From Flavobacteriales bacterium (lineage in GTDB: Bacteria; Bacteroidota; Bacteroidia; Flavobacteriales; TMED113), in NCBI GenBank assembly GCA_002701365.1, contig NZUK01000002.1:46195-110194 (forward strand): 64,000 nucleotides of DNA, in the 5' to 3' direction. Shown here one piece after another: positions 1 through 26,088 of this stretch. The notes beneath the pieces are model-generated. The model was not told the DNA's origin, did not search any database, and worked only from the letters and a program-made list of their open reading frames with translations. Both the position numbers and the translations under genes were made by a program. Position 1 is the stretch's first letter. Every line of letters begins with the position of its first letter.

Positions 1-1581
1 TTTGACTCTGGATCTATGCCATATGCGCAATGGCACTATCCTTTTGAGAACAAAGACTTAATTGACTCTGGGTTGTTTTTTCCGGCAGACTTTATTGCCG
101 AGGGTGTTGATCAAACAAGGGGTTGGTTTTTTACGCTCCATGCAATTGCCTCTATGTGTTTTAATAGTATTGCTTTTAAAAATGTTATTTCCAATGGGCT
201 GGTTTTAGATCGTTCTGGGCAAAAAATGTCCAAAAGACTTGGCAACACGATTGACCCTTTTGAGGCTATTGAGGCTCATGGTGCAGACTCGTTGAGGTGG
301 TATATGGTTAGTAATTCTCAGCCTTGGGATAACTTGAAGTTTGACATTGATGGCGTCGTTGAAGTAAAACAAAAAATGTTTAGCACTCTTTATAACACAT
401 ATTCATTTTTTAGTTTATATGCTAATATTGATGGTTTTACTAAAGCTGAAGAAGAAATTAAACTGTCTGATAGACATCTTTTAGATCAGTGGATTTTGTC
501 TGAACTACACACACTAATATTAAGTGTTCAGACTAAATATGAATCCTATGAGCCCACCCTAGCATGCAGGGAAATTCAGGCTTTTGTAACTGACAAATTA
601 AGTAATTGGTATATTCGGCTTTGTAGAAGGCGTTTTTGGAAGGGGGGGTATGATTTAGAAAAAATTTCCGCATACCAAACCTTGCTTGAGTGTTTAATGA
701 CCGTTGCCAAGCTTGGCTCGCCAATTGCACCCTTTTTTATGGATCAGCTGTTTTGTGATATTAGTATAGGACTGGGTTGTGATTCTGAAGATTCTGTTCA
801 TTTATCTCGCTTTCCTGTTGCTAATAAAGAGTTTATAAATCCCTTTTTGGAAGAAAAAATGAAACTTACTAAAAATATTTGTTCGCTTGCCCTGTCTCTG
901 AGGAAAAAAGAAGGCATCCGTGTTCGCCAACCTCTTGAATCTGTAACTATTTGTTTATCTGGAAACAAGGGCTCTAAAGATGTTCTTGTTGAATTAATTC
1001 GGTCTGAAATTAATGTGAAAAATGTTTTTTTTGAAAAAAACTCTAATAATATTGTTAAGCGAAAATTGGTTGTAAACTTTCCTGTTGTGGGCAAAAAGTA
1101 TGGTAAGTTGGTTAAGGAAATTGTGTCTGCCGTGGGTGATTTGCGCGAAGAAGACCTTTCTGATTTTGAGGCCTCTGGTGAGATTTCTTTAAATTTACTT
1201 AACTCAAGTGTTGTGTTAAAAAGTGCTGATGTTTTTATTAAGGCTGACGATGTTCCTGGGGTTTTAACGGCAAAGGCTGACGACGTTCTTGTTGTTTTAA
1301 ATTCTGAGCTATCTAGTGATCTTTTGGAGGACGGCTACGCAAGAGAGTTTATTAATTTTATTCAAAACACTCGGCGCGAATTAGGCTTAAAAGTAATGGA
1401 TAAAATAACTTTATTTGTTGGGGGCGACTCTGATGCTCAAAAAATTATACTCAAACACTGTGAATATATTAAAAAAGAGGTTCTAGCTTTTGAAATACAT
1501 GTTGGTGAGGGGTTTTCAAAAAAATCTCATGTGTTTGAATTTAATGATTATAAACTGTATATTGTGGTTCAATTTTCTTGA
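1..1581 (+). CDS. ileS: Isoleucyl-tRNA synthetase, C-terminal part (5' end lies upstream of the window)
   Basis: The frame is open from nt 1, with no stop before listed ORF 16..1581. The class I KMSKS loop is present as KMSKRLGN. It is followed by the conserved dksA-like and lspA neighbours. Confidence 0.9.
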   Translation, partial: FDSGSMPYAQWHYPFENKDLIDSGLFFPADFIAEGVDQTRGWFFTLHAIASMCFNSIAFKNVISNGLVLDRSGQKMSKRLGNTIDPFEAIEAHGADSLRWYMVSNSQPWDNLKFDIDGVVEVKQKMFSTLYNTYSFFSLYANIDGFTKAEEEIKLSDRHLLDQWILSELHTLILSVQTKYESYEPTLACREIQAFVTDKLSNWYIRLCRRRFWKGGYDLEKISAYQTLLECLMTVAKLGSPIAPFFMDQLFCDISIGLGCDSEDSVHLSRFPVANKEFINPFLEEKMKLTKNICSLALSLRKKEGIRVRQPLESVTICLSGNKGSKDVLVELIRSEINVKNVFFEKNSNNIVKRKLVVNFPVVGKKYGKLVKEIVSAVGDLREEDLSDFEASGEISLNLLNSSVVLKSADVFIKADDVPGVLTAKADDVLVVLNSELSSDLLEDGYAREFINFIQNTRRELGLKVMDKITLFVGGDSDAQKIILKHCEYIKKEVLAFEIHVGEGFSKKSHVFEFNDYKLYIVVQFS

Positions 1582-1585
1582 TGTT

Positions 1586-1969
1586 ATGAAAAAAAGTGTT
1601 TCTAAAAGATATTCTGATTCAGAGCTATTAAATTTTAAAAAAATCATCTTAAAAAAGATTGATATTGCCAAACATGACCTCCAACTTTTAAGGGACTCTT
1701 ATAGCAATGCTTCTTCTAATGGAACGGATGACACCTATTCTTCTTTTAAATCTTTTGAGGAAGGGTCGGAAACCTTGTCAAAAGAGTCTAACACGTTGTT
1801 GGCGGCTAGACAAGAAAAATTTATCCGAGACCTTGAAAATGCGTTGGTTCGTGTTGAAAATAAAACATATGGTATTTGTAGAGAGTCTGGTAAGCTTATT
1901 GCTAAAAAAAGATTGGTTTTGGTGCCACATGCTACATTAAGTATTGATGCGAAAAATAAATCGAAATAG
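1586..1969 (+). CDS. DksA/TraR-family protein (degenerate zinc finger)
   Basis: Listed ORF 1490..1969 overlaps ileS. The first ATG after the ileS stop (TGA 1579-1581) is at 1586 (MKKSVSKRY). The C-terminal YGICRESGKLIAKKRLVLVPHATLSIDAK resembles the DksA/TraR finger region. The gene sits between ileS and lspA. Confidence 0.6.
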   Translation: MKKSVSKRYSDSELLNFKKIILKKIDIAKHDLQLLRDSYSNASSNGTDDTYSSFKSFEEGSETLSKESNTLLAARQEKFIRDLENALVRVENKTYGICRESGKLIAKKRLVLVPHATLSIDAKNKSK

Positions 1970-2531
1970 ATTTGTGAAAATTTTTGGATTAAGTCCCTGG
2001 TTTTTTGTTTTTATTCTTGTGTGCCTTGATCAAGGCTTGAAGTTTTTTGTTAAATCTAGTTTTTATATTGGTGAACAACGGGAGATTTTTAACTGGTTTT
2101 CTCTTTATTTTGTTGAAAACAATGGTTTTGCTTTTGGTTATGAATTCTTTGGCGCGTGGGGAAAACTGCTTTTAACTACTGTTAGAATAGTTTTTGTTTT
2201 TGTTCTTTTTAAATGGGTGGTGAAATTATTAAAAGCTGGACTAAATAAATTTGTTTTTCTGGCTTTTTTGTTAGTTTTTTCTGGGGCAATTGGTAATATT
2301 GTTGACAGTGTTTTTTATGGCGTTTTTTATGGTTATGCTCCTTTGTTTTTTGGTAAAGTTGTAGACATGTTTTACTTCCCTTTGTTTTCTGGAACATACC
2401 CTGGTTGGGTGCCTTTTTTCGGTGGCAAAGATTTTCTTTTTTTTAAGTATATTTTTAATCTTGCAGACTCTTATATTACGTGCGGGGCCGTTCTTTTGCT
2501 TATTTTTTACAATCGTGTTCCTGTTAAATAA
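1944..2531 (+). CDS. lspA: Lipoprotein signal peptidase (signal peptidase II)
   Basis: Multi-TM protein with motifs NNGFAFG, GAIGNIVDSVFYG and FNLADS. It shows classical linkage to ileS and overlaps the preceding gene by 26 nt. Confidence 0.85.
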   Translation: MMRKINRNRFVKIFGLSPWFFVFILVCLDQGLKFFVKSSFYIGEQREIFNWFSLYFVENNGFAFGYEFFGAWGKLLLTTVRIVFVFVLFKWVVKLLKAGLNKFVFLAFLLVFSGAIGNIVDSVFYGVFYGYAPLFFGKVVDMFYFPLFSGTYPGWVPFFGGKDFLFFKYIFNLADSYITCGAVLLLIFYNRVPVK

Positions 2532-2567
2532 TAGAGTTGTTTTCTCTCTTTTATCTCTTTGTTTTTT

Positions 2568-2575
2568 TATATTTG
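2568..2575 (+). promoter_or_regulatory. Candidate Bacteroidota -7 box (TAnnTTTG) upstream of hppA
   Basis: TATATTTG lies 32 nt upstream of the hppA ATG (2608), in the only spacer between lspA and hppA. I saw no convincing -33 TTTG at canonical spacing. Confidence 0.3.
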
Positions 2576-2607
2576 CCCAACTTGAATAAATTAATCTTAT
2601 TTGTATT

Positions 2608-4785
2608 ATGGAATTTTTAACTAGTAATCTTATTTATATTGCTCCTCTTCTTGGTTTAGTGGGTTTAATTGTTATGTTTTTTCAATCTTCTTGGGTTTCT
2701 AAACAGGACCCTGGAGATAAAAAAATGGTTGAACTTTCGGATCATATTGCCAAGGGGGCTATGGCTTTTTTAGTCGCTGAGTGGAAGGTTTTGTCTGTGT
2801 TTGCTGTATTTGCTGCCACCGTCTTGGCCTGGTCAGGAACCTTAATAGAAACCTCTTCTCCTGTTATTGCTATTGCTTTTTTGATTGGTGCTTTTTTTTC
2901 AGCACTAGCAGGTTATTTTGGCATGAAAATTGCGACCAAGGCAAACGTTAGAACAACTCAGGCTGCTAGAACAAGTCTATCGAAGGCTTTAAAGGTTTCT
3001 TTTACCGGTGGTTCTGTAATGGGTTTAGGTGTTGCGGGTTTAGCTGTAATGGGCTTAGGTGGATTGTTTATTTTATTTTATAATATTTATGTTGTAAGTG
3101 TTGGAGGAAGTGTAACGGGCCTTGAGATGGTTAAGGCTTTAGAGGTTCTTGCTGGGTTTTCTTTGGGCGCAGAGTCAATCGCTTTGTTTGCTCGTGTAGG
3201 AGGAGGCATTTACACAAAGGCTGCGGATGTTGGCGCCGACCTAGTTGGTAAAGTGGAGGCTGGTATTCCTGAAGATGATCCAAGAAACCCTGCCACTATT
3301 GCTGATAATGTTGGTGACAATGTTGGCGATGTTGCGGGAATGGGAGCAGATCTTTTTGGCTCATATGTTGCAACAATTTTAGCAACAATGGTTTTGGGTC
3401 AAGAAATATCTTCAGTTGATAACTTTGGGGGTATTGCTCCTATTTTATTGCCTTTGGTTATTGCTGGTTTAGGTTTAATATTTTCTATAATTGGAACTTT
3501 TTTTGTTAGAATTCGATCTGAAGAAGGATCTGTGCAAAGTGCGCTTAATCTTGGTAATTGGCTGTCTATTTTGTTTACTTTTATTGCCTCTTATTTTCTA
3601 ACACAGTGGATGCTTCCTGAGACGATGGAAATTAGGGGGGTTGTTTTTTCTTCCATAAGTGTTTTTTGGGCAATTGCTACGGGTCTTATTGTTGGTGCTT
3701 TAATGTCTATAATAACAGAATACTACACTTCTATGGGGCGTAGGCCCGTAGACTCTATTATTCATCAGTCTTCAACAGGTCATGCAACTAATATTATAGG
3801 TGGCCTGGCTGTTGGTATGGAATCAACCGTTTTACCCACCTTGGTGTTGGCGGCCGGAATATATGTTTCTTTTTTGTTTGCAGGACTTTATGGTGTGGCT
3901 ATTGCTGCTGCTGGCATGATGGCAACAACAGCTATGCAGTTGGCTATTGATGCTTTTGGGCCAATAGCAGATAATGCTGGCGGTATTGCAGAGATGAGTG
4001 GTTTGCCCAAGGAGGTTCGTGAAAGAACAGATAATTTAGATGCTGTCGGAAACACTACCGCTGCCGCCGGAAAGGGCTTTGCGATTGCTTCTGCCGCCCT
4101 AACGGCCTTGGCTCTATTTGCGGCGTTTGTTGGTTTGGCCGGAATTGATTCAATAGATATATATAAAGCGGATGTTCTTGCGGGACTGTTTGTTGGGGGC
4201 ATGATCCCGTTCATTTTTTCTTCGTTGGCAATTGCCGCTGTGGGGCGCGCTGCCATGGACATGGTGAAAGAGGTGCGAAGACAATTTAAAGAAATTCCTG
4301 GTATTATGGAAGGAAAGGCTACTCCTGAATATGAAAAATGTGTTGAAATTTCAACAAAAGCTTCTATTAGAGAAATGATTCTTCCTGGAGCTATTCCTTT
4401 GGTTGTTCCTGTTGTTGTTGGTTTTTGTTTTGGCCCTGAGGTTTTAGGTGGTCTTTTGGCTGGTGTTACTGTTTCTGGTGTGTTAATGGGTATTTTTCAA
4501 AATAATGCCGGGGGAGCCTGGGACAATGCTAAAAAATCTATAGAGGCTAGTGGTGAAAAAGGATCGGAATCTCACAAGGCGTCTGTTACTGGAGACACTG
4601 TTGGTGACCCTTTTAAAGACACCTCTGGTCCATCTATGAATATTCTTATTAAATTAATGAGCATTGTTTCTTTGGTTATTGCTCCTCATATTTGTGAAAA
4701 AGACAATGGTCACGGCTCTGTTGAAGATAGTCCCGGTGTTGAGTTGTCCTATGAAGATGTTGAAGAAGATGTTATTAATTATTAA
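2608..4785 (+). CDS. hppA: Membrane-bound ion-translocating pyrophosphatase (K+-dependent type)
   Basis: 725 aa with many TM segments. Signature motifs include [24 protein letters not shown] and [25 protein letters not shown] carries Ala at the K+-dependence determinant. Confidence 0.95.
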
Positions 4786-5749
4786 TTAAATAGTCTAGTA
4801 TTTGAATGGCATTTGTTGCCGCTCCTTTTCTTAATGGGTCGGCAACAACCCACATGTTGAATGTGTTTTTTTGAGAGAAATCCTCTCTTATTCTGGAAAC
4901 AAAAACCTCGTTTTTTCCTCTTACCTCTGTGGGTGTTTTATAGTTTTTTCCTTGCTCAACAATAACTCCGTTTTGTTTTTTTAAAAGTTGTATTAATTGC
5001 TTTTTTGTTGTCTTTTTTTTAAGCTCAATATTAACACTTTCTCCGTGTCCACCAAGAGTTGGAACCCTAACTGCGGTTGCTGTTATTTTTATATTAGAAT
5101 TAAGAATTTTATTTGTTTCTTTTATTATTTTTTCCTCTTCTTTTGTGTAGTCGTTTTCACAAAAATCATCACACTTTGGAATAACATTTCTGTGTATTTT
5201 ATTTTTATATACTTTTTCTTTAGGTTCTTCTTTTTTTTCTTCTTTCTTTAATTGTTCTACTGCCTTTAGTCCTGTTCCAAGCACAGACTGGTATGTTGAC
5301 ACTACCATTCGCTTTATTCCTACTTTTTTTTGTATAATAGCAATTGCCATTATTAACTGTATTGTTGAACAGTTTGGGTTTGATATTATTTTATCTTTTT
5401 TTGATATTATTTTTCCGTTTATTTCTGGAACTATTAATTTTATGTTTTTATCCATTCTAAAGGCCGAAGAATTATCTATGACTATTGCCCCTATTTTATT
5501 GAATTTTTTTGCATATTTTTTTGAAGCCTGTGCCCCTGCCGAAAATAACGCGTGTGTAGGATTTTGTTTTAATGCTTGGTCTACTGAAACGACCTTGTAT
5601 GTTTTATTTTTATAGGTTATTTTTTTTCCCTTGCTTTTTTCTGTAGCAACAAAAATTACTTTTTTAATGGTTTTGTTTTTTTTTTCTTCTAAAATTTTTA
5701 TAATTTCTTTTCCAACTAAACCTGTGGCGCCTAAAATTGTTAATATCAT
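4775..5749 (-). CDS. asd: Aspartate-semialdehyde dehydrogenase
   Basis: N-terminal Rossmann motif ILGATGLVG, active-site NPNCSTIQL, plus FSAGAQAS and GGHGESVNIE. The protein is very Lys-rich and the gene AT-rich. Its 3' end overlaps the hppA 3' end convergently by 11 nt. Confidence 0.85.
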   Translation of the reverse strand: MILTILGATGLVGKEIIKILEEKKNKTIKKVIFVATEKSKGKKITYKNKTYKVVSVDQALKQNPTHALFSAGAQASKKYAKKFNKIGAIVIDNSSAFRMDKNIKLIVPEINGKIISKKDKIISNPNCSTIQLIMAIAIIQKKVGIKRMVVSTYQSVLGTGLKAVEQLKKEEKKEEPKEKVYKNKIHRNVIPKCDDFCENDYTKEEEKIIKETNKILNSNIKITATAVRVPTLGGHGESVNIELKKKTTKKQLIQLLKKQNGVIVEQGKNYKTPTEVRGKNEVFVSRIREDFSQKNTFNMWVVADPLRKGAATNAIQILDYLINN

Positions 5750-5795
5750 AAACCGTTTGTTATAAATAATCCAAGAAATTTAAATATTTATTTTA

Positions 5796-7538
5796 ATGTT
5801 TTCTAAAGCTTTATTATTAAAATCTAAAAAACTTCCTAACAAAACTGGTGTTTATATGTTTTTAAATAATAAAAAAGTATTATATGTCGGTAAATCTAAA
5901 AAAATTAAAACCCGCGTTAGTTCTTATTTTCAATCAGATTTAAAAAAAGACCAATTAATTATTTCTTCATCTAATAATATTAAATATCTTCTTGTTGATT
6001 CAGAGGAGGATTCTCTTTTTTTAGAAAATAACTTAATAAAAAAACACAAACCTAAATACAATCTTTTATTAAAAGATGATAAAAACTTTCCTTGGATATG
6101 TATAAAAAATGAAAGGTTTCCTCGTGTTTTTATTTCTAGAAAAAAAGAAAACAATAATGATTTTTATTTTGGGCCCTATATAAATAACCGTATTTTAAAA
6201 AAACTACTTGAAATTGTTTTTGATTTTTACCCGGTTAGATCTTGTAATTTTAATCTTTCTAAAAAGAATATTTTATCTAAAAAATACACGGTTTGTTTAG
6301 ATTATCATTTAAAAAAATGTTTTGGTCCTTGTGAAGGTTATCAAAGTGAAAAAGATTATTATAAAAATATTTCTTCCATCAAACTACTTTTAGAGGGAAG
6401 GTATTCTTCTTTCTTAAAAATAATTAAAAAAGAGCTTGAGTTTTGTTCAAAAATGCTTCTTTTCGAAAGATGTGAAAGTTTATATAATTTAATAAATAAA
6501 ATCAACTATTTAAAAAGTAAAAGTATTATTGTTTCTGTTAAAAGCATTGATTTAGATTGTTTTTATATTTTAAAAATTAATAATTTTTACTATATAAATT
6601 TTATAAGAATAATAGAGGGTTCTGTTCTTTTTATAAATAACTATAAATTTAAAAATGAATTTTATTTTTCAGAAGAAGATGTTTTAAGAAGTTTTATTAA
6701 AAAAGTATTTATAAATTATAATAGCGTTTCTAAAAACTTAATTTCTAATATTAATATTGATTCTTTTTTTAATAGTCGTGTTTTTGTACCTAAAAGAGGT
6801 TATAAAAAAAATATCCTTGATTTATCTAAAAAAAATATCCTTGAATATATTGGTTCCAAAAATCCTAAATTTGATATTTCTATTTTAATTAATTTAAAAA
6901 AATACTTGAATCTTAAAAATACTCCCTTTATTATTCACTGTTTTGATATTTCTAATTTAAATGGAACAAACACCACTGCTTCTTGTATTGTTTTTAAGAA
7001 TGGAAAACCTTTAAAATCTGAATATAGGTCTTATAAATTAAACTCTGTATTTGGTCCTGATGATTATTTATCTCTCTCAGAAGCTGTAGAAAAAAAATAT
7101 AAAAAATTTAAAAATATTCCTGATTTAATAGTAATAGATGGAGGGAAAGGTCAATTAAATACAGTATTAGAAAAATTTAAAAAATTAAATATTATTAAAA
7201 AAGATATAATAAGTATAGCTAAAAAAGAAGAAATAATTTTTTTAAGTGATAATAAAAAGGTTGTTTTAAATAAAAAAAGCGAAGAGTTAAAGTTAATTCA
7301 GTATATAAGAAATGAAGCTCATCGATTTTGTTTAAAACATCATAGGGTTTTAAGAAATAAAAACTTTATTAATACAGAGTTAAATAATATAAAAGGAATA
7401 GGTAATAAAACAATATTTGAATTATTAAATAATTATAAAACATTAAAAAATATAAAAAATTGTTCTAAAAAAGATTTAATAGGTTTTGTTGGTTTAAAAA
7501 AAGGAAATATTATATATAAACATTTTAATAAAAAATAA
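5796..7538 (+). CDS. uvrC: Excinuclease ABC subunit C
   Basis: GIY-YIG N-terminus (GVYMF..VLYVGKSKKIKTRVSSYF), a UVR-like segment, an endonuclease region (HCFDISNLNG, VIDGGKGQLN) and a C-terminal HhH (LNNIKGIGNKT). The gene is extremely AT-rich. Confidence 0.85.
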   Translation: MFSKALLLKSKKLPNKTGVYMFLNNKKVLYVGKSKKIKTRVSSYFQSDLKKDQLIISSSNNIKYLLVDSEEDSLFLENNLIKKHKPKYNLLLKDDKNFPWICIKNERFPRVFISRKKENNNDFYFGPYINNRILKKLLEIVFDFYPVRSCNFNLSKKNILSKKYTVCLDYHLKKCFGPCEGYQSEKDYYKNISSIKLLLEGRYSSFLKIIKKELEFCSKMLLFERCESLYNLINKINYLKSKSIIVSVKSIDLDCFYILKINNFYYINFIRIIEGSVLFINNYKFKNEFYFSEEDVLRSFIKKVFINYNSVSKNLISNINIDSFFNSRVFVPKRGYKKNILDLSKKNILEYIGSKNPKFDISILINLKKYLNLKNTPFIIHCFDISNLNGTNTTASCIVFKNGKPLKSEYRSYKLNSVFGPDDYLSLSEAVEKKYKKFKNIPDLIVIDGGKGQLNTVLEKFKKLNIIKKDIISIAKKEEIIFLSDNKKVVLNKKSEELKLIQYIRNEAHRFCLKHHRVLRNKNFINTELNNIKGIGNKTIFELLNNYKTLKNIKNCSKKDLIGFVGLKKGNIIYKHFNKK

Positions 7539-7839
7539 TGTTAATAAAATTTAATTATACCAGTTAATTTATTAACAATAATTTGACTCTTTTTTTTAAA
7601 AAAAAATAATAATTAATTTTATTAAAATTTAATAAAAAATATTAGTGCCTTATTAACATTGTTATTAATAATATTTAAATAACATATTTTATATTTTATT
7701 ATTATTTTAATTATAAAATTTGTTTATATAAATCATATTTAGATTTTTTTTTATTGTTAATATTATTTAATAATTAAAAAAACCAAATATTATTAAATTA
7801 AAAATTACACTTATTAACATTATATATATATATATAATA
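7539..7839. other. Near-pure A/T convergent intergenic spacer
   Basis: By my hand count there are 24 G/C in 301 nt. It lies between the 3' ends of uvrC (+) and the beta-helix gene (-). It contains T8A9 (about 7590-7606) and (TA)8 tracts. It is the largest gene-free spacer seen in the window. Confidence 0.8.
7821..7836. repeat. (TA)8 dinucleotide microsatellite
   Basis: The sequence tatatatatatatata is read directly. It lies just 3' of the stop codon of the 7840..8994 gene. Confidence 0.9.
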
Positions 7840-8994
7840 TTAATATTTTAAATATTTTATATTATATATAGTGTTTATATTTACTCCTAAATTAGTGTTG
7901 TTATTACCAGATCTTAGTGCTGGTGAATTATTATTTAAATTATAATTAAAATTTATTGAGTTAATGTATTCAGGATTTCCTAAAATATTATAATAACCTT
8001 TTAATATATTATTATTAGATAAACAATAAGAGTTTATAATATTATAATTATTAATATCAAAATCTTCGTTATTATAAGAATATATGTTATTTTTTGATAT
8101 TATATTATTATTAGTTTTTAAACTATTATTAGTTTTTATAGCAATATTATTTATATCAAAATTATTATTAACAATATAAAATATAGAATTATTATTTATT
8201 TCTAATGCTGTATTATTTTTTATAAATAAATTATTATAAATTTTATTAAAACCAGTTTTATTATTAATTGTTAAAGAATTATTATTATTAAAAAAAACGT
8301 TATTAATTATATTAGTATTATTACAATTATTAATTAATAAACCAGAATTATTAAAAATCAAATTATTATTTAAATTTAAATTTTTTAAAGAGTTAAATTT
8401 TAAATTTTTAGAATTATTAAAAACACAACCATTTAAATTTAATGTAGAATTATTAATACTTATAAGTGTATTATAGAAATAAGAATTATTAAAAATTAAA
8501 GAAGAGTTATTTAATTCTAAAACAGAATTATTAATAATAGAATTATTAATTTTAAAGTCGGATTTTTCAATATTAAAATCTACATTTTTTATAAAACAAT
8601 TATTTAAAAAAAAACTACTATTATTTTTTAAATAAAAAACACTTTCTTTTTTAGAATAAATAAAAACATTATAATATTTTTCATAATTTTTTAATTCTGA
8701 AACGTTAAAAAAAAACAAAGAATCTATATTACTTTCACCTATAATTAAAGTTCCATTATTTATAATTTGAGCAGAATTTTTTAAAAATAATTCTACCCCA
8801 TTTTTTAAAACAAGAGTTTTGTTTTTAGGAATAATTAAATCTTTTTTAATAATATATTTTTTTTTAGATTTTTCTAAATAACTAATATTATTAATAGTTT
8901 TTAAATTAGAACTTTTTATCCAACCATCTTTATTTATAGAAATACTATTATTACACGAATAAATTAAAAACAAAATAAAAAAAAATCTATACAT
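7840..8994 (-). CDS. Asn-rich parallel beta-helix (PbH1-like) repeat lipoprotein
   Basis: Lipobox-like N-terminus (FILFLIYSC). There is a periodicity of about 20-22 aa in NNx[IF]xNN motifs (LIFNNSGLLINNCNNTNIINNVFFNNNNSLTINN), typical of right-handed beta-helix repeats. My hand count gives about 103 Asn in 384 aa. It overlaps the upstream ABC gene by 8 nt. Confidence 0.6.
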   Translation of the reverse strand: MYRFFFILFLIYSCNNSISINKDGWIKSSNLKTINNISYLEKSKKKYIIKKDLIIPKNKTLVLKNGVELFLKNSAQIINNGTLIIGESNIDSLFFFNVSELKNYEKYYNVFIYSKKESVFYLKNNSSFFLNNCFIKNVDFNIEKSDFKINNSIINNSVLELNNSSLIFNNSYFYNTLISINNSTLNLNGCVFNNSKNLKFNSLKNLNLNNNLIFNNSGLLINNCNNTNIINNVFFNNNNSLTINNKTGFNKIYNNLFIKNNTALEINNNSIFYIVNNNFDINNIAIKTNNSLKTNNNIISKNNIYSYNNEDFDINNYNIINSYCLSNNNILKGYYNILGNPEYINSINFNYNLNNNSPALRSGNNNTNLGVNINTIYNIKYLKY

Positions 8995-10552
8995 TTTTTT
9001 TAAAATTAGAATCTGAAATTAATAATTTTGTATAGTATTTTCTATTATTAGAAAATAAATTTTTTGTTTTAAAACTATCAATAATAAGACCCTTTTTTAA
9101 AACAATAATTTTATCACACAAATAATAAATAGAATTAATATCATGAGAAATAAAAATAACAGTAATATTTAGTTTTTTATTTATAAAATATATCAAATTT
9201 AATATTGAAAATTGTGTTTCTATGTCTAATGCAGAAATAGACTCGTCAAAAACAATAATTTTAGGACTAGAAGCAAGAACACGAGCAATCGAAACCCTTT
9301 GTTTTTGACCCCCTGAAAGCTCATGAGGAAATCTATTTATTAAGGAAGTGTCTAAAGAAACAAACTTAAAAAGTTCTTTATCAGAGGTGTTAGTTTTATA
9401 TAGTTTTATAATCTCATTAACACTATCTCCAACAGTATATTTAGGGTTGAAAGTAAGAAAAGGATCTTGATATACCATTTGAACAGAAGATAAAAGAGAA
9501 AAAACAGAATCATTGTAATAAAAATCACCAGAATAATTTTTTTCGATACCACACAAAATTCTTCCAAGTGTTGTTTTTCCAGAACCAGAACCTCCAACAA
9601 CACCCAAACAATCACCACCAGAGATTTTTAGATTAATATTTTTTAAGGCAGTAAATTTTTTATTATTCTTTACATAAGAAAGGCTCACATTTTTTAAATC
9701 AAAGAGTTTTAATTTTTTTAAAAGAAGCGAGTTGTTTAAATTAAAATTAGATAAAGAAAAAGAGGTATCTATTTTTTTTTCTCGGATTTTATTTAAAATT
9801 TTATTTAAAGAAACAAGGTGCTCCACGGGCTTATTAGGTTTATTTTCAACAAAAAAACGGTCCTTAAAAACAATAACACGATCAGAGTAAAAATTTATTA
9901 AATCAAGATTGTGACTAATTAAAACAACAGAGAGATTTCTGGTTTTTTTTAAACTTAAAATAAGATCTAAAACCTCTTTTTGAACAGAGGGGTCTAAAGA
10001 CGTTGTTGGCTCATCAGCAATAAGTAGAACTGGCTCAGAAGCAAGAGCAATAGCTATTACAACTCTTTGTTTTTGTCCCCCCGAAAGTTCATGAGGAAAT
10101 GAATTAAAAACTTTTTCAGGGTTAGTAATACCAACCTCTTTTAAAACAACTAAACAATTTTTTTTTAAGTTACCTTTCTTTAATAAATAAAAAACTTCAC
10201 TCAACTGTTGACCGCAGGTTAAAACGGGATTTAAACTTGTAGCCGGGTCTTGAAAAACAAGAGAAATAAAGCGTAGGCGAAAATCATTCCAGTCAGATTT
10301 TTTTTTATTCAAAAGATTAAAAAAGGGTTTTTTTTGTTTTTTAAAAACAAAGGCCCGGTCTGCAGAACACTTAAAAACAGATCTGTTTAACAGGCCTAGA
10401 AGAAATAAAGAAAAAACCGACTTTCCTGATCCAGAATCACCAAAAAGCCCAACAATCTCACCAAAACGAACATTAAAATCAGAGCTACAAACGAGACTAT
10501 TACTACCCGCCGAAATAGATAAATTCTTTATATCAACAACAAAATCGGACAT
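8987..10552 (-). CDS. ABC transporter ATP-binding protein with two fused ATPase domains (Dpp/Opp/YejF-like)
   Basis: Two Walker A motifs (GDSGSGKS, GGSGSGKT), two LSGGQKQR signatures and two Walker B motifs (LLIADEPT, IIVFDES). There are no TM segments and no permease gene nearby. Confidence 0.85.
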   Translation of the reverse strand: MSDFVVDIKNLSISAGSNSLVCSSDFNVRFGEIVGLFGDSGSGKSVFSLFLLGLLNRSVFKCSADRAFVFKKQKKPFFNLLNKKKSDWNDFRLRFISLVFQDPATSLNPVLTCGQQLSEVFYLLKKGNLKKNCLVVLKEVGITNPEKVFNSFPHELSGGQKQRVVIAIALASEPVLLIADEPTTSLDPSVQKEVLDLILSLKKTRNLSVVLISHNLDLINFYSDRVIVFKDRFFVENKPNKPVEHLVSLNKILNKIREKKIDTSFSLSNFNLNNSLLLKKLKLFDLKNVSLSYVKNNKKFTALKNINLKISGGDCLGVVGGSGSGKTTLGRILCGIEKNYSGDFYYNDSVFSLLSSVQMVYQDPFLTFNPKYTVGDSVNEIIKLYKTNTSDKELFKFVSLDTSLINRFPHELSGGQKQRVSIARVLASSPKIIVFDESISALDIETQFSILNLIYFINKKLNITVIFISHDINSIYYLCDKIIVLKKGLIIDSFKTKNLFSNNRKYYTKLLISDSNFKKNV

Positions 10553-11707
10553 TTATGAAAAATCTTTAATAACCATTCGAATAATAAAGTCGAGGCTGTT
10601 TGTTAACATATAGTTTTCGATATTTTCAAAACCATCCTCAGACCTTCCTAAACGAACAAAAACAACATTTAATTCAGGAATAAAAACAACATATTGACCT
10701 AAAAAACCTCTAGCATAGTAAATAGTGTGATTTAAAACGCTAGCCGCCCACCACCCGTTTGAATAAAAATCAACTTGTTTGCTTGGATTTTCTCCATTAA
10801 TCAACAAAGGAGCAGACAACAACCAATTAAAATAACCTTCAGAAATAACACCCCTCCCAGAAGACAACATAAGTAAACCAATTTTTGAAAAATCACGAGC
10901 ACTACTATTAAAGCAGCAAAAGGTTTTTTCAAACCCATTTTTTGAATCAAGAGACCAGGCGGCATTGTTTGATGCTCCAATTTTTGACCACAAAACCTCA
11001 CTAGCAAAATCAGAAACACTTTTGCCAGTAGACCTGCTTAAAATAAAACCAAGTAGTTGAGTGTTTCCGCTGTTATAACGATAGGTAACACCAGGCGCCT
11101 CAGTAAAACCCCGCCTTAACAAAACACTAAAAAGATCATCACCATAATAAGCCTTTGCTGTTACACTTATCGGTTTTTTATAATTTTCTAACCAGTCGAA
11201 ACCCGAAGACATGTTTAATAAATGACGAATTTTCACATCGTGATTTTTATAAGGAGAAAGCTCTGGAAGAAAATCAAAAATACTTTGATTAACACTTTTA
11301 ATATATCCACTATCTATAGCACAACCAACCAACAAGGACACAATGCTTTTTGCAATAGAAAAAGAGTTGCTCAAAGAGTCTAACCCACCATCATCCCAGT
11401 ACTTTTCTAAACGAACACTATCGTCTTTAATAACTAAAAACGCAGAAGTTTCAATAGAGTTTAACATATTGAGTAAAGAGTCGTTTTCTAAAGAGTCAAG
11501 GTAGTTTGAGGCCAAGGGCAAAGGCTTAGGACTAGGGGCTAAAACAGACCGAGTATTAAAAAAGTTAAAATCATCGATTTGAGCAGAGGTTTCGCCCCTC
11601 AGATAAGTTTGTTTAATTCCTGGAAATAAATAAAAAAGATCAAAAACAACAACACAGAAGCATGCACAAAAAATAAAGAATAAAAAAAAACGGTTTTTCA
11701 AAATCAA
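10553..11707 (-). CDS. Serine hydrolase, beta-lactamase class C / PBP-related family
   Basis: N-terminal TM or signal segment and an S-x-x-K motif (FSIAKS). Length and layout are typical of beta-lactamase-related serine hydrolases. It has a TTG start overlapping the lipB stop and abuts the ABC gene start. Confidence 0.7.
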   Translation of the reverse strand: MILKNRFFLFFIFCACFCVVVFDLFYLFPGIKQTYLRGETSAQIDDFNFFNTRSVLAPSPKPLPLASNYLDSLENDSLLNMLNSIETSAFLVIKDDSVRLEKYWDDGGLDSLSNSFSIAKSIVSLLVGCAIDSGYIKSVNQSIFDFLPELSPYKNHDVKIRHLLNMSSGFDWLENYKKPISVTAKAYYGDDLFSVLLRRGFTEAPGVTYRYNSGNTQLLGFILSRSTGKSVSDFASEVLWSKIGASNNAAWSLDSKNGFEKTFCCFNSSARDFSKIGLLMLSSGRGVISEGYFNWLLSAPLLINGENPSKQVDFYSNGWWAASVLNHTIYYARGFLGQYVVFIPELNVVFVRLGRSEDGFENIENYMLTNSLDFIIRMVIKDFS

Positions 11708-12381
11708 TCTACAATTTTACAATTAAAAACTTCTTGAAAACAGGACCTAAAGCTTTCTTCAACAGCTAAAAAATTAACGCTTTTTCCAAGCTCATTGTTT
11801 AAAGAGGTTACCCCCTTGTCTGTTATTCCACAAGGAATAATACTATTAAAATAAGACAAATCAACATCAACATTAAAAGCTAGACCATGCATAGTAACCC
11901 ACCGACTTGTTCTAACCCCCATGGCGCAAATTTTTTTGTAACCAACTTTTTGGTCCCCAAGCCAAACGCCCGTTGAATCATTAATTCGAAAGCCACTAAG
12001 GTTGTGTTTTTTTAAGACCAATATAACAACCTCCTCTAAAAAACGTAAATACTTATGAATGTCTGTAAAAAAATTATCTAAATCTAGTATTGGATAAATA
12101 ACAAGTTGCCCAGGGCCATGATAAGTTATATCCCCCCCCCGATTTATTTTATAAAAACTAGCATCACGACTTTTTAACCCCTCGCTGTTTAACAGCAAAT
12201 GTTCCGCTTTACCGCTTTTTCCTAGCGTGTATACATGGGGGTGTTGACAAAAAATAATATAATTTTCAGTTTTTAACCCCTCACGTTTTTTTTTAATAAT
12301 AGAGTTTAAAAGGTCTTCTTGAACACCCCAAGCCTCTTTAAAGTCTATAATTCCTAAATTTTTAAAAAAAACACTATTCAT
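11704..12381 (-). CDS. lipB: Lipoyl(octanoyl) transferase
   Basis: Motifs RGGDITYHGPGQLVIYP and KICAMGV, with the typical length of about 225 aa. Confidence 0.9.
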   Translation of the reverse strand: MNSVFFKNLGIIDFKEAWGVQEDLLNSIIKKKREGLKTENYIIFCQHPHVYTLGKSGKAEHLLLNSEGLKSRDASFYKINRGGDITYHGPGQLVIYPILDLDNFFTDIHKYLRFLEEVVILVLKKHNLSGFRINDSTGVWLGDQKVGYKKICAMGVRTSRWVTMHGLAFNVDVDLSYFNSIIPCGITDKGVTSLNNELGKSVNFLAVEESFRSCFQEVFNCKIVD

Positions 12382-12399
12382 TTCTAATATGAATATAAC

Positions 12400-12407
12400 T
12401 ATATTTG
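12400..12407 (+). promoter_or_regulatory. Candidate -7 box (TAnnTTTG) for lysS
   Basis: TATATTTG ends 20 nt before the GTG start of lysS, in the divergent lipB/lysS spacer. Confidence 0.4.
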
Positions 12408-12427
12408 GTTAATATTAATTTTAAGAC

Positions 12428-13939
12428 GTGGAAAAACATACAGAACAAGAAATAATAAGAAGAAATTCTTTAGAAAAAATAAAAGAAAAAGGCATAAATC
12501 CGTATCCGGCAGAAGAATATATAATAAGCACTAATAGCGCGGAAATAAAGTCAAATTTCTCACCCAAAGAAACCCCGCCCTTAAATATTAGTATTGCGGG
12601 TAGAATAATGGGACGTAGAATAATGGGTAAGGCTTCGTTTGTTGAAATAAAAGATGAAAAAGGAAGAATACAGGTATATGTAAATAGAGATGAAATTTGT
12701 CCTCAAGAAGATAAAACAATGTATAATGAAGTGTTTAAAAAATACTTAGACATAGGTGATATTATTGGAGTCACAGGAGATGTTTTTATAACAAAAGTCG
12801 GAGAGATAAGTGTAAAAGCTAAAACAATTAAAATTTTATCAAAATCATTAAAACCACTACCTATTGTAAAAATAGACTCAACAGGAGAAAAACACGATGA
12901 TTTTAAAAACACAGAACTTCGATACCGACAAAGATCACTAGACTTAATGGTTAACGATGACTCATGGAAAACTTTTGAAAAAAGAACACAACTAATAAAT
13001 AGCATTAGAAACATTTTAAACAAACAAGGATATATGGAAGTTGAAACACCCATCTTGCAACCAATTGCAGGTGGTGCTGCGGCAAGACCATTTATCACAC
13101 ACCACAACACCTTAGACATGCCTCTTTATTTAAGAATAGCTAATGAGCTATATTTAAAGAGGCTTATTGTTGGCGGAAAACATGGTGTTTATGAGTTTGC
13201 AAAAGATTTTAGAAACGAAGGAATGGATAGAACGCATAATCCAGAGTTCACAATGTTAGAATTTTATGTTGCCTACAAGGACTACAAGTGGATGATGGGT
13301 TTTATAGAAAAAATGTTTGAAAAAGTAGCAAAAGAAGTTTGTGGAGAAACAAAAATAAAATACGATAACCAAGAAATAGAATTAAAGGGGCCATATAAGA
13401 AAATTGCATTTTTTGATGCAATTCAAGAAAAAACAGGCCAAAATATTTCTAATATGACAAACGAAGAGCTAACAAGGTATTGTAAGTCTAAGAAAATAGA
13501 AACCAACAGCTCAATGGGTAGAGGGAAGCTTTTTGACTCGATTTTTGGAGAGTTTTGCGAAAAAGACTTAATACAACCAACATACATAACAGACTATCCA
13601 GTAGAAATGTCACCATTAACAAAAAAACATAGAGAAAAAAAGGGCCTTACAGAGAGATTTGAACTGTTTATAAATGGAAAGGAAATAGCAAATGCATATT
13701 CAGAACAAAACAACCCAATTGAACAAAGAAAAAGCTTTGAAGAGCAAGTAAAACTTTCCGAAAAAGGGGACGACGAAGCAATGTTAATAGACAATCACTT
13801 TTTAACGGCACTAGAATATGGAATGCCGCCAACATCCGGAATAGGCATAGGAATAGACAGGTTAACAATGCTATTAACAAACAAAAAAACAATTCAAGAT
13901 GTTTTGTTTTTTCCACAAATGAAACCAGAAAAAAAATGA
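12428..13939 (+). CDS. lysS: Lysyl-tRNA synthetase, class II
   Basis: GTG start. OB-fold N-domain, class II motif 2 region DFRNEGMDRTHNPEFTMLE and motif 3 GIGIGIDRLTMLL. Confidence 0.95.
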   Translation: MEKHTEQEIIRRNSLEKIKEKGINPYPAEEYIISTNSAEIKSNFSPKETPPLNISIAGRIMGRRIMGKASFVEIKDEKGRIQVYVNRDEICPQEDKTMYNEVFKKYLDIGDIIGVTGDVFITKVGEISVKAKTIKILSKSLKPLPIVKIDSTGEKHDDFKNTELRYRQRSLDLMVNDDSWKTFEKRTQLINSIRNILNKQGYMEVETPILQPIAGGAAARPFITHHNTLDMPLYLRIANELYLKRLIVGGKHGVYEFAKDFRNEGMDRTHNPEFTMLEFYVAYKDYKWMMGFIEKMFEKVAKEVCGETKIKYDNQEIELKGPYKKIAFFDAIQEKTGQNISNMTNEELTRYCKSKKIETNSSMGRGKLFDSIFGEFCEKDLIQPTYITDYPVEMSPLTKKHREKKGLTERFELFINGKEIANAYSEQNNPIEQRKSFEEQVKLSEKGDDEAMLIDNHFLTALEYGMPPTSGIGIGIDRLTMLLTNKKTIQDVLFFPQMKPEKK

Positions 13940-14355: not shown

Positions 14356-14358
14356 AAA

Positions 14359-17465: not shown

Positions 17466-17476
17466 AATCTATTTAA

Positions 17477-21445: not shown

Positions 21446-21450
21446 GGTAA

Positions 21451-22356: not shown

Positions 22357-22431
22357 ATAGTATTATCAAAACATATGGATAGTTCAAAAAATAAAATAAT
22401 TTTATATGCGTTTTCTTTTTAATATAAAAAA

Positions 22432-25029: not shown

Positions 25030-25048
25030 CCCATTAAATTATATTGAA

Positions 25049-25450: not shown

Positions 25451-25464
25451 TAGTAAAAGAAAGC

Positions 25465-26041: not shown

Positions 26042-26088
26042 TAGAAAAAAACATATTAATAATAGGAGGTTTTTAATTATAAATTAAT

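What the first reader, a model, noticed from the sequence alone, without database searches (positions are those of the whole stretch)
4900..9900. AT-extreme compositional trough of about 5 kb that engulfs the core genes asd and uvrC
I hand-counted G+C in single 60-nt lines. Background lines gave 33/60 (3181, hppA), 26/60 (29041, atpA), 19/60 (37021) and 15/60 (20101). Trough lines gave 12/60 (5161, asd), 6/60 (6541, uvrC), 6/60 (8101) and 4/60 (8281). The edges are soft. The asd 3' end (4775-4900) and the 5' third of the ABC ATPase gene (10000-10552) look like background, and the ABC gene becomes progressively AT-richer toward its 3' end. Catalytic motifs are intact (asd NPNCSTIQL; UvrC GIY-YIG, endonuclease and HhH), so these genes are functional. 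Their products are nevertheless saturated with Lys, Asn and Ile, like proteins of AT-rich insect-endosymbiont Flavobacteriia. AT-rich islands normally carry accessory cargo, not single-copy repair and amino-acid-biosynthesis genes. Possible explanations are xenologous replacement from a very AT-rich donor, a local mutational or repair anomaly, or an assembly or binning chimera.
Basis: partly seen in the sequence, partly recalled or inferred. Interest (0 to 1): 0.7.

Follow-up and report, generated by a model that had tools for sequence, protein, structure and literature searches.

The report
Conserved AT trough at strand-switch site
A 5-kb stretch of extremely A+T-rich DNA covering the core genes asd and uvrC is real, native and conserved across a clade of marine Flavobacteriales, and it is centred on a conserved non-coding element where strand composition flips, so it looks like the mutational footprint of a fixed replication-related site (most likely the origin) and not foreign DNA or an assembly error.

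Summary
G+C falls smoothly from about 40% to 10.5% (1-kb windows; 6.5% over 200 bp at 7600-7799) against a 27.5-44% background. All eight hand counts are exact.

It is not a chimera. Four independent assemblies are 99.8-99.9% identical, without gaps, across both edges.

It is not recent transfer. Relatives with UvrC at 83, 61, 57, 54, 51 and 47% identity keep the same gene order and the same V-shaped trough.

The new result is that the trough centre, the 301-bp uvrC/ORF384 spacer, is the switch point of a strong local strand asymmetry:
- At four-fold sites T:A is about 3:1 on the + strand to the left and 1:3 to the right.
- This holds regardless of gene orientation.
- It decays over 15-40 kb.
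- Synonymous G+C is 2-4% within 1 kb of the centre.

The spacer holds 5-7 conserved copies of TTATTAACA/TGTTAATAA (7 of 9 positions match a DnaA box) and a T-run.

Best reading: a position-dependent, strand-asymmetric, AT-biased mutation field radiates from a replication-related site, most likely oriC. A recurrent-break site or a terminus are live rivals. The near-field skew polarity is opposite to that of a classical origin, so the mechanism is unresolved.

The parts
4900..10000 (.). G+C trough. It is V-shaped, with soft edges, and has its minimum at 7500-9100.
2608..4785 (+). hppA (H+-pyrophosphatase), the left shoulder. Total G+C is high but GC3 is background (0.28). It already carries the strong T>A bias at four-fold sites (AT4 -0.48).
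4775..5749 (-). asd (aspartate-semialdehyde dehydrogenase), GC3 0.21. It lies on the - strand yet shows the same + strand T excess as its + strand neighbours (AT4 -0.32).
5796..7538 (+). uvrC, GC3 0.108, FYMINK 0.51. Domains are intact. Identity in relatives is 83/61/57/54/51/47%.
7539..7839 (.). Convergent intergenic spacer (7.5% G+C measured with 10-bp flanks), the centre of the trough and of the strand-composition switch. It stays alignable across lineages whose synonymous sites are saturated.
7539..7547 (-). Repeat copy TGTTAATAA (= TTATTAACA on the - strand). Its G column is invariant in five lineages.
7569..7577 (+). Repeat copy TTATTAACA.
7590..7606 (.). T8A9 tract. T-runs of 8-21 nt sit at this position in all lineages. 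It is a candidate unwinding element.
7650..7658 (+). Repeat copy TTATTAACA. Its C column is invariant. It reads TTATCAACA in L090 and TTATTAACA in L108.
7721..7729 (-). Repeat copy TGTTTATAT.
7755..7763 (-). Repeat copy TGTTAATAT. Its G column is invariant.
7811..7819 (+). Repeat copy TTATTAACA (invariant C column), followed by (TA)8 at 7821-7836.
7840..8994 (-). ORF384, a lipoprotein-type signal peptide plus an eroded right-handed beta-helix. GC3 is 0.060 and FYMINK 0.625. It is a real, clade-restricted gene.
8987..10552 (-). Double ABC ATPase. G+C rises from 13% at its 3' end to 33% at its 5' end. AT4 is +0.59.
1..43600 (.). Extent within the window of the bipolar A/T asymmetry at synonymous sites. 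The + strand is T-rich left of about 7.7 kb and A-rich to the right, and the bias fades to zero by about 36-44 kb from the centre.

Best explanation
The trough is native DNA of an uncultured clade of small-genome marine Flavobacteriales. A conserved non-coding element in the uvrC/ORF384 spacer marks a fixed chromosomal site. From it radiates an AT-biased, strand-asymmetric mutation pressure.

Shown:
- Synonymous G+C falls from about 27% to 2-4% at the centre.
- On each side, the strand that runs 5'->3' towards the centre becomes T-rich (up to 69% T against 19% A at four-fold sites).
- The effect decays over tens of kilobases and ignores gene orientation.
- The pattern sits at compositional equilibrium in every lineage examined.
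- asd, uvrC, a beta-helix lipoprotein gene and an ABC ATPase gene simply lie in this field. They stay under purifying selection while their codons and amino-acid composition are dragged towards A+T.

Inferred: the site is most likely the chromosomal replication origin. The spacer carries 5-7 conserved DnaA-box-like 9-mers in both orientations next to a T/A tract. Far from the site the G-rich strand points away from it, at least on the right. In this reading the near-field bias records repeated exposure or low-fidelity copying of the leading-strand template around the initiation bubble, for example the helicase running ahead of leading-strand synthesis. That last mechanistic step is speculative.
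For: - Independent assemblies rule out an artefact.
- Synteny and trough are conserved in lineages with UvrC at 83, 61, 57, 54, 51 and 47% identity. All 45 clade UvrC proteins have FYMINK 0.47-0.54, against about 0.35 outside the clade.
- Synonymous sites are saturated between lineages (four-fold identity 0.46-0.72 for W versus L085), so the pattern is maintained and not inherited passively.
- The bipolar AT4 skew is independent of gene strand.
- Pooled profile over 6-7 lineages: -0.13 ... -0.47, -0.63 | +0.56, +0.54 ... +0.07, -0.01. G+C at four-fold sites (GC4) is 0.04 within 1 kb.
- The folded profile gives T/A = 3.6 at 1-2 kb. The zero crossing is smooth and spans about 1 kb centred on the spacer.
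- Motif: TAACA/TGTTA occurs 6-7 times against about 1.1 expected in local shuffles, p <= 0.001 in each of five lineages. Every invariant G/C column but one lies inside the motif. Spacer identity is 0.67 against 0.566 +/- 0.013 for shuffles. In 2.0 Mb of fetched DNA, four or more copies per 300 bp occur only at this spacer.
- Far right, GC3 skew is +0.10 to +0.15 in genes of both orientations (z = 3-4.5). Far left (21-31 kb, another lineage) it is -0.007 and -0.14.
- Two tRNA genes and the atp operon on the right point away from the site, and mnmG/gidA lies 47 kb away.
- In Bacteroidetes oriC is commonly far from dnaA (PMC4755523).
- The outgroup L027 has the same gene families with no trough and |AT4| <= 0.17.
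Against: - Near-field polarity is the reverse of a classical origin. Within about 17 kb the strands running towards the centre are T- and G-rich (GC3 skew +0.2 to +0.3 on the left, -0.14 to -0.34 on the right). That is what converging forks, or 5'->3' resection from a break, would give.
- The repeat has A where the DnaA-box consensus TTATNCACA requires C6, and no box with one mismatch or fewer lies in the spacer.
- About 85% of the 31 kb on the left is transcribed towards the site, including the sdh and suf operons, ileS and hppA. These genes would be head-on to forks leaving an origin.
- The far-left skew comes from a different lineage from the far-right skew and is only weakly negative.
- No dnaA or dnaN lies within reach.
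- SNP density among near-identical assemblies is no higher inside the trough. What differs is therefore the bias, not a much higher mutation rate.
Confidence: 0.45

Rival explanations
1. A recurrent two-ended break, or another site that generates single-stranded DNA, lying inside one replichore. Each event is resected 5'->3' outwards from the spacer. This leaves the 3'-ended strands single-stranded for kilobases, where they suffer deamination and depurination, followed by fill-in synthesis. The conserved repeats would bind whatever protein makes or processes the break.
For: - The polarity fits exactly: the T-rich strand is the one whose 3' end points to the centre on both sides.
- The effect is strongest at the site and decays outwards over 10-30 kb, as expected for a process of finite processivity that starts there.
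- On that strand both purines are depleted within 1 kb (G 1.3%, C 2-5%), while C is the more depleted base at 4-16 kb.
- Gene orientation on both sides and the far-right GC3 skew fit one fork passing from left to right.
- A strong short-range zone plus a weak long-range zone resembles the mutation zones reported around engineered breaks in E. coli (my recollection, not checked here).
Against: - There is no conserved long palindrome or unusual hairpin potential in the spacer (z = -1.2).
- No nuclease gene is adjacent.
- I know of no precedent for a programmed chromosomal break conserved across a bacterial family.
- Far-left GC3 skew is about 0 or negative, not the +0.1 expected if the same fork direction held on both sides.
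- SNP density is not raised.
Confidence: 0.2
2. A replication terminus. Forks converge on the spacer and slow as they approach. The lagging-strand templates therefore stay single-stranded longest near the meeting point. The repeats would be binding sites of a fork-trap protein.
For: - Near-field AT and GC skews have classical terminus polarity. Cumulative GC skew has a local maximum at about 8 kb.
- Genes converge on the spacer.
- Termini tend to be A+T-enriched in many bacteria (established knowledge, normally at the 100-kb scale).
Against: - No dif-like site scores >= 24/28, or >= 19/21 for the core, anywhere in the window or in four relatives' loci. Bacteroidetes dif sites have been predictable with the proteobacterial profile (PMC3025954).
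- Beyond about 17 kb to the right, GC3 skew is +0.10 to +0.15 in both gene orientations, the wrong sign for a terminus. The far left is about 0 or negative.
- Skew should be a step that persists along each replichore, not a peak that decays.
- The atp operon and both tRNA genes would be head-on.
Confidence: 0.15
3. Selection for A+T-richness itself: a structural or regulatory domain, such as binding of a nucleoid-associated or silencing protein or an easily melted zone, with no special mutational input.
For: - The conserved protein-binding-like repeats and the long persistence of the trough.
Against: - Selection on melting or protein binding does not predict a bipolar T-versus-A asymmetry at synonymous sites that reaches 15-40 kb and changes sign at the centre.
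- The G+C gradient extends kilobases into essential genes at a visible cost to protein composition.
Confidence: 0.05
4. Xenologous replacement: asd, uvrC and their neighbours were acquired from a very AT-rich donor.
For: - Extreme Lys/Asn/Ile composition.
- A distant relative, L027, lacks hppA-asd-uvrC-ORF384 between lspA and the ABC gene, so a rearrangement occurred at some ancient time.
Against: - The graded edges run through genes.
- Trough and synteny are present in every lineage down to 47% UvrC identity.
- The nearest non-clade UvrC sequences are ordinary Flavobacteriaceae at 40-44% identity.
- There are no mobility genes and no flanking tRNA.
- The asymmetry extends far beyond the four genes.
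Confidence: 0.02
5. Assembly or binning chimera.
For: - None beyond the odd composition. Several short-read contigs do end inside the trough.
Against: - Four assemblies from different pipelines and samples are collinear and 99.8-99.9% identical, without gaps, across both edges.
- A long-read 1.62-Mb contig of a relative spans the locus.
Confidence: 0.01

Closest known systems
Replication-associated strand compositional asymmetry (skew switch at ori/ter, Lobry-type)
   Same: The composition of the two strands changes sign at one point. The effect is independent of transcription direction and is visible at synonymous sites.
   Different: Ordinary skew is a step that persists along each whole replichore at about +/-0.05-0.15. 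Here the skew is +/-0.5-0.6 for A/T, peaks next to the site and decays within tens of kilobases. Its polarity is opposite to the weak far-field GC skew. It is coupled to a collapse of G+C.
Bacterial oriC (DnaA-box cluster plus AT-rich unwinding element)
   Same: A conserved non-coding region carries 5-7 copies, in both orientations, of a 9-mer that matches TTATCCACA at 7 of 9 positions, next to a T/A tract. In Bacteroidetes oriC is usually far from dnaA (PMC4755523).
   Different: The unwinding elements I know of are tens of base pairs long and do not drag 5 kb of flanking genes to 10-20% G+C. The repeat breaks the C6 rule of the consensus. The near-field skew has the wrong sign. The flanking genes converge on the site.
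A+T enrichment and dif at replication termini
   Same: Locally lower G+C, convergent genes and terminus-like near-field skew.
   Different: No dif was found. The scale is 5 kb, not about 100 kb. The far-field skew contradicts a terminus.
Animal mitochondrial control region with a skew gradient set by time spent single-stranded
   Same: A non-coding A+T-rich control region is flanked by a distance-dependent strand asymmetry at synonymous sites.
   Different: In mitochondrial DNA the damaged strand runs away from the origin and the gradient is one-directional. Here the pattern is bipolar and the T-rich strands run towards the site (comparison from my own knowledge).
Mutation hot zones around double-strand breaks, and the Pol I footprint next to ColE1 origins (E. 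coli experiments)
   Same: Mutational effects are strongest within about 2 kb of a defined site and have a long weak tail. The strand specificity reflects which strand is exposed or copied by a secondary polymerase.
   Different: Those are laboratory observations over generations. Here the effect is fixed in genome composition across a whole clade.

Membership tests
DnaA-dependent chromosomal origin (oriC) | Cluster of DnaA boxes (TTATNCACA, few mismatches) in a non-coding region | tested here: inconclusive
   There are 5-7 conserved copies of WWAT[T/C/A]AACA in both orientations. They match TTATCCACA at 7 of 9 positions and carry A at the consensus C6. No box with one mismatch or fewer lies in the spacer.
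DnaA-dependent chromosomal origin (oriC) | Adjacent A+T-rich unwinding element | tested here: met
   T8A9 in the window, and T-runs of 8-21 nt at the same position in all lineages. This discriminates poorly in DNA of 7% G+C.
DnaA-dependent chromosomal origin (oriC) | Skew switch with origin polarity (the G-rich strand leaves the site on both sides) | tested here: inconclusive
   Far right: +0.10 to +0.15 (met). Far left: -0.007 and -0.14, in another lineage (weakly met). The near field within about 17 kb has the opposite sign.
DnaA-dependent chromosomal origin (oriC) | Indicator genes nearby (dnaA, dnaN, gidA/mnmG) | tested here: inconclusive
   None lies within about 31 kb to the left or 46 kb to the right. 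mnmG is at 54378-56246. Bacteroidetes origins are usually far from dnaA.
DnaA-dependent chromosomal origin (oriC) | Marker-frequency maximum, or autonomous replication | not testable with these tools
   This needs read mapping to the complete contig, or experiments.
Replication terminus with a dif site | 28-bp XerC/D dif site | tested here: not met
   No match scores >= 24/28 to DBBBCSBATAATRTAYATTATGTHAANT, or >= 19/21 to its core, in the window or in L085, L088, L090 and L091.
Replication terminus with a dif site | Skew switch with terminus polarity that persists along both flanks | tested here: not met
   The polarity is terminus-like only within about 17 kb. Beyond that, GC3 skew on the right is positive in both gene orientations.
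Horizontally acquired genomic island | Sharp compositional borders, mobility genes or a tRNA at the edge | tested here: not met
   The gradients run through asd and the ABC gene. There is no integrase or transposase ORF and no tRNA within 40 kb.
Horizontally acquired genomic island | Patchy presence among relatives, or discordant phylogeny | tested here: not met
   The trough is present, with the same gene order, in every clade lineage examined. The UvrC outgroup hits are Flavobacteriaceae. No formal trees were built.
Assembly chimera | The junction is not reproduced in independent assemblies | tested here: not met
   L001-L004 are collinear and 99.8-99.9% identical across both edges. L109 and L110 also carry the same gene order across the locus.

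The most novel reading that the evidence does not exclude
A conserved chromosomal element in a clade of streamlined marine Flavobacteriales repeatedly creates kilobases of single-stranded or low-fidelity-copied DNA on the strands whose 3' ends point to it. It could be an origin with an unorthodox initiation mode, or a programmed break or recombination-dependent site. To my knowledge, it has left an exceptionally strong local mutational footprint for a bacterial chromosome: synonymous G+C of 2-4%, T:A of 3.6:1 and a reach of 15-40 kb. That footprint has rewritten the amino-acid composition of essential proteins while they remain functional.
Probability: 0.3. Interest if true: 0.9.

Novelty: new variant of a known kind. 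Interest (0 to 1): 0.75.

Why it matters
If this is right, genome composition here records a kilobase-resolution map of a strand-specific mutational process tied to one chromosomal site, replicated independently in at least six lineages whose synonymous sites are saturated. That would make a long-standing question directly testable in uncultured bacteria: how much replication initiation, termination or break repair contributes to local mutation bias.

It also gives a natural experiment on how far essential enzymes (UvrC, Asd) tolerate compositional drag. It warns annotators that extreme A+T islands are not necessarily foreign. And it gives a sequence signature (trough, bipolar A/T skew, TTATTAACA cluster) that could locate the same site in fragmentary metagenome bins. 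Binning and assembly tools that use composition or coverage are likely to break or mis-bin contigs at this locus.

Tried and rejected
- **Chimera:** rejected by four collinear assemblies.
- **Recent transfer:** rejected by conserved synteny and trough.
- **Transcription-coupled asymmetry:** rejected. asd on the left, and lysS, rpiB and M28 on the right, carry the skew of their position and not of their own strand.
- **Translational codon selection:** rejected for the same reason.
- **A second switch or origin at about 25 kb, where GC3 skew changes sign:** rejected. 25.0-26.1 kb is fully coding and has no box cluster. In relatives the change there is gradual.
- **A 17-kb inversion:** rejected. 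The arrangement is conserved in lineages whose synonymous sites are saturated.
- **Canonical dif:** none found.
- **parS:** considered by eye and not tested with a search; the repeat spacing did not look like the 16-bp palindrome.
- **Structured RNA:** no Rfam hit in 4500-10600.
- **Cruciform or hairpin fragile site:** the fold is no better than shuffles.
- **Directional substitution counts between lineages:** abandoned because four-fold sites are saturated even between the two closest lineages.
- **Elevated mutation rate:** SNP density is similar inside and outside the trough.
- **hppA scan of GTDB genomes:** it returned only distant Bacteroidota (74-82% identity) and one partly syntenic SAG. 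It served as a control and gave no relatives.
- **Replichore test on complete-genome loci (L010, L071, L072, L082):** uninformative, because origin positions are unknown.
- **Look-up of P0253:** it turned out to belong to the L097 lineage and not to the one I needed.
- **Six literature searches:** no description of such a trough was found.

Full report
**1.

In 1-kb windows G+C falls smoothly from 0.43 at 3.5-4.5 kb to 0.105 at 7.5-8.5 kb and is back at 0.34 by 10-11 kb. The other 54 kb of the window stay between 0.275 and 0.443. The 200-bp minimum is 0.065 at 7600-7799.

The genes are:
- hppA, 2608-4785 (+)
- asd, 4775-5749 (-)
- uvrC, 5796-7538 (+)
- a 384-aa ORF, 7840-8994 (-)
- a double ABC ATPase, 8987-10552 (-)
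- followed by a beta-lactamase-family gene, lipB and lysS.

GC3 is 0.21, 0.108, 0.060 and 0.17 for asd, uvrC, ORF384 and the ABC gene, against 0.23-0.32 for all other ORFs. In about 1.5 Mb of hppA-centred loci from 80 other Bacteroidota, no 1-kb window falls below 0.69 times its locus median. The trough reaches 0.30-0.45 times.

**2. Not an artefact and not recent transfer**

The exact UvrC protein is encoded on contigs from at least four independent assemblies: an ENA MEGAHIT contig of 111.5 kb that contains the window, two GenBank assemblies and one JGI assembly. These are collinear with the window, gapless and 99.8-99.9% identical across both edges.

A protein search found a graded series of UvrC homologues from marine metagenomes at 83% down to 47% identity, followed by a jump to ordinary Flavobacteriaceae at 40-44%. 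All 45 clade members have FYMINK 0.47-0.54, against about 0.35 outside the clade.

Contigs of lineages at 83, 61, 57, 54, 51 and 47% identity all carry hppA-asd-uvrC-ORF-ABC-blaC-lipB-lysS. All show the same V-shaped trough, with its minimum (10-14% G+C) at the uvrC 3' end, the spacer and the ORF. One of these contigs is 1.62 Mb long.

Four-fold sites are already near saturation between the two closest lineages (identity 0.46-0.72). The trough is therefore maintained independently in each lineage.

Trough proteins are not unusually fast-evolving: UvrC is at 83/61/57% where IleS is at 65/64%. SNP density among the near-identical assemblies is similar inside and outside the trough. What is peculiar is the direction of change, not a much higher rate.

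**3. What sits at the centre**

The trough centre is the 301-bp convergent spacer between uvrC and ORF384. It is 7.5% G+C, measured with 10-bp flanks.

It remains alignable across all lineages: mean identity is 0.67, against 0.566 +/- 0.013 for aligned shuffles.

All invariant G/C columns except one lie in copies of one 9-mer, TTATTAACA, or its complement TGTTAATAA.
- There are 5-7 copies per spacer, in both orientations and at conserved positions.
- The core TAACA/TGTTA occurs 6-7 times where local shuffles give about 1.1 (p <= 0.001 in each of five lineages).
- In 2.0 Mb of fetched DNA, four or more copies within 300 bp occur only at this spacer.
- The 9-mer matches the DnaA box TTATCCACA at seven positions. 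It carries A where the accepted consensus requires C6, and no box with one mismatch or fewer lies in the spacer.

A T-run of 8-21 nt (T8A9 at 7590-7606) and a short (TA)n tract are also conserved.

There is no Rfam match, no unusual hairpin potential and no dif-like site.

**4. The key new finding: a local bipolar strand asymmetry**

At four-fold degenerate sites, read on the + strand:
- Genes left of the spacer have T far above A (AT skew -0.5 to -0.64). This includes asd, which lies on the opposite strand (-0.32).
- Genes to the right have A far above T (+0.4 to +0.6). This includes the + strand genes lysS and M28.
- The same pattern holds in every relative.

Pooling 6-7 lineages by signed distance from the centre gives:

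| Side | Distance from centre | AT4 skew |
|---|---|---|
| Left | 32-26 kb | -0.13 |
| Left | 26-20 kb | -0.08 |
| Left | 20-16 kb | -0.07 |
| Left | 16-12 kb | -0.14 |
| Left | 12-10 kb | -0.28 |
| Left | 10-8 kb | -0.28 |
| Left | 8-6 kb | -0.44 |
| Left | 6-4 kb | -0.47 |
| Left | 4-2 kb | -0.40 |
| Left | 2-1 kb | -0.63 |
| Left | 1-0 kb | -0.38 |
| Right | 0-1 kb | +0.27 |
| Right | 1-2 kb | +0.56 |
| Right | 2-4 kb | +0.54 |
| Right | 4-6 kb | +0.35 |
| Right | 6-8 kb | +0.32 |
| Right | 8-10 kb | +0.32 |
| Right | 10-12 kb | +0.28 |
| Right | 12-16 kb | +0.30 |
| Right | 16-20 kb | +0.20 |
| Right | 20-26 kb | +0.15 |
| Right | 26-32 kb | +0.09 |
| Right | 32-44 kb | +0.07 |
| Right | 44-57 kb | -0.01 |

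Synonymous G+C is 0.26-0.28 far away, 0.20 at 2-6 kb, about 0.1 at 1-2 kb and 0.02-0.04 within 1 kb.

The sign change is smooth and spans about 1 kb centred on the spacer and the 3' end of the ORF.

Folding both sides together, the strand that runs 5'->3' towards the centre is 69% T and 19% A at 1-2 kb. Within 1 kb both purines are depleted on that strand. At 4-16 kb C is more depleted than G (G/C 1.2-1.4).

An outgroup genome that is even more A+T-rich (L027, 27% G+C) carries the same ABC, blaC, lipB, lysS and hppA families. It has no trough and |AT4| <= 0.17. The pattern therefore belongs to the place and not to the genes.

**5. Which kind of site?**

The near field has the composition classically found where forks converge. 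The strands pointing to the centre are T- and G-rich: GC3 skew is +0.2 to +0.3 on the left and -0.14 to -0.34 on the right, out to about 17 kb.

A terminus is nevertheless disfavoured:
- No dif site is present, although Bacteroidetes dif sites were predictable with proteobacterial profiles (PMC3025954).
- Beyond about 17 kb on the right, GC3 skew is +0.10 to +0.15 in genes of both orientations (z = 3-4.5).
- The far left (21-31 kb, one other lineage) is -0.007 and -0.14.
- A replication skew should persist along the replichore, not decay.

The apparent second switch at about 25 kb is not an origin. That stretch is fully coding, and in relatives the change there is gradual.

Several points together make a replication origin the single most likely identity:
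- The far-field polarity is origin-like.
- The effect decays outwards from the site.
- The spacer carries a DnaA-box-like cluster and a T/A tract.
- The atp operon and both tRNA genes point away from the site on the right, and mnmG lies 47 kb away.
- Bacteroidetes origins usually lie far from dnaA (PMC4755523).

Three things count against an origin:
- The near-field polarity is inverted.
- The repeat deviates from the DnaA-box consensus at C6.
- About 85% of the 31 kb on the left is transcribed towards the site.

A recurrent two-ended break resected outwards would explain the polarity, the shape and the gene orientation without special pleading. It has no supporting palindrome, no adjacent nuclease gene and no precedent that I know of.

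My weights are about 0.45 for the origin, 0.2 for a break or single-stranded-DNA site, 0.15 for a terminus and 0.05 for selection on A+T-richness. The remainder is unknown.

**6. Mechanism: what is shown and what is inferred**

Shown:
- A position-dependent pressure, independent of gene orientation, drives G/C to A/T and drives A to T on the strand running towards the centre.
- It is strongest within 2 kb and has a tail of 15-40 kb.
- It is conserved across the clade.
- The coding sequences inside it stay intact. A 384-codon ORF at 13% G+C cannot persist by chance, and it is conserved at 81/47/44% identity.

Inferred: the T-rich strand is the one that is repeatedly single-stranded, undergoing cytosine deamination and purine loss followed by insertion of A opposite the lesion, or the one whose complement is made by a low-fidelity polymerase.
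- For an origin, this requires exposure of the leading-strand template near the initiation bubble.
- For a break, it is the 3' tail left by resection.
- For a terminus, it is the lagging-strand template of slowing forks.

None of these steps can be tested here.

**7. Other content of the region**

ORF384 has a lipoprotein-type signal (MYRFFFILFLIYSC) and no Pfam or NCBIfam hit. An exhaustive search found only 23 representatives with E < 1e-10 among 1.84 billion proteins. Its distant hits, at 25-29% identity, are right-handed beta-helix proteins (PF13229, NosD), some with T9SS tails. It is a compositionally eroded beta-helix lipoprotein and not a DNA-handling factor.

**8. Comparison with known systems, and verdict**

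The locus shares features with oriC, with termini and with mitochondrial control regions. It meets the full definition of none of them with the tests available (see the membership table). Six full-text searches found no description of such a trough.

I classify it as a new variant of a known kind: replication-linked compositional asymmetry, here extreme, local and of unusual polarity. My interest score is 0.75.

The decisive tests are cumulative skew and read-coverage slope on the complete 1.62-Mb contig of a relative.

**Caveats**
- Genes were called as longest non-overlapping ORFs.
- The far-left and far-right fields come from different lineages.
- G/C counts within 1 kb of the centre are very small.
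- L090 is an error-prone long-read contig; L108 was used in its place in the folded profile.

Noticed in passing
window 7840-8994 (-): ORF384 has a lipoprotein signal and matches no Pfam or NCBIfam model. Its family is nearly restricted to this clade (23 representatives at E < 1e-10 among 1.84 billion proteins). Distant hits carry PF13229 Beta_helix/NosD domains and T9SS sorting tails. It appears to be a right-handed beta-helix protein whose sequence signature has been eroded by A+T pressure.
   Followed up: partly
L027:2275-12232 (Cryomorphaceae SAG AG-903-K14): In this distant relative lspA is followed directly by the ABC, blaC, lipB and lysS genes, and hppA lies downstream of lysS. asd, uvrC and ORF384 are absent from the locus. 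The block hppA-asd-uvrC-spacer-ORF384 was therefore brought together with the ABC gene in the ancestor of the clade. The locus has no trough and no A/T skew.
   Followed up: partly
window 14000-25100 versus 25100-64000: GC3 skew read on the + strand is -0.18 in genes of both orientations at 15.9-25.1 kb and +0.10 to +0.15 beyond. The sign change falls at the porW/bactofilin/atp boundary, where there is no non-coding space. It is conserved, and more gradual, in L096 and L097.
   Followed up: yes
window 50000-58000: Third-position A/T skew turns negative again (-0.11 to -0.30) in genes of both orientations. This is unexplained. It could be the genome-wide baseline or the approach to another feature beyond the window.
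   Followed up: no
window 25049-25476: The 134-aa ORF on the - strand (25072-25476) is an antisense shadow of a bactofilin gene on the + strand (25049-25450). The bactofilin gene is the one conserved in relatives.
   Followed up: yes
window 54378-56246 (-), 49395-49469 (+), 62010-62081 (+): mnmG/gidA, a frequent origin-indicator gene in other phyla, lies 47 kb from the trough. The only two tRNA genes in the window (Arg-TCG and Cys-GCA) are both on the + strand.
   Followed up: partly
L090:6131-6728, 8973-9955, 11848-12668: In the 1.62-Mb long-read contig, lspA, asd and the ORF384 homologue are each split into two ORFs. In the 90%-identical short-read contig L108 they are intact. These are probably homopolymer errors in very A+T-rich DNA. 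Several short-read contigs (L003, L004, L089) end inside the trough, which suggests a coverage loss there.
   Followed up: partly
L110:383-6202; L098:400-11100: Left of the window lie kynurenine-pathway genes (3-hydroxyanthranilate dioxygenase, ACMSD-like amidohydrolase, aminomuconate-semialdehyde dehydrogenase) and then the suf and sdh operons. Nearly all are transcribed towards the trough.
   Followed up: no
window 22432-25029 (+), 46856-49348 (-), 50916-54320 (+): Type IX secretion components PorW/SprE and PorZ, and an 1134-aa protein with a T9SS sorting tail. These are consistent with a Flavobacteriales host.
   Followed up: no
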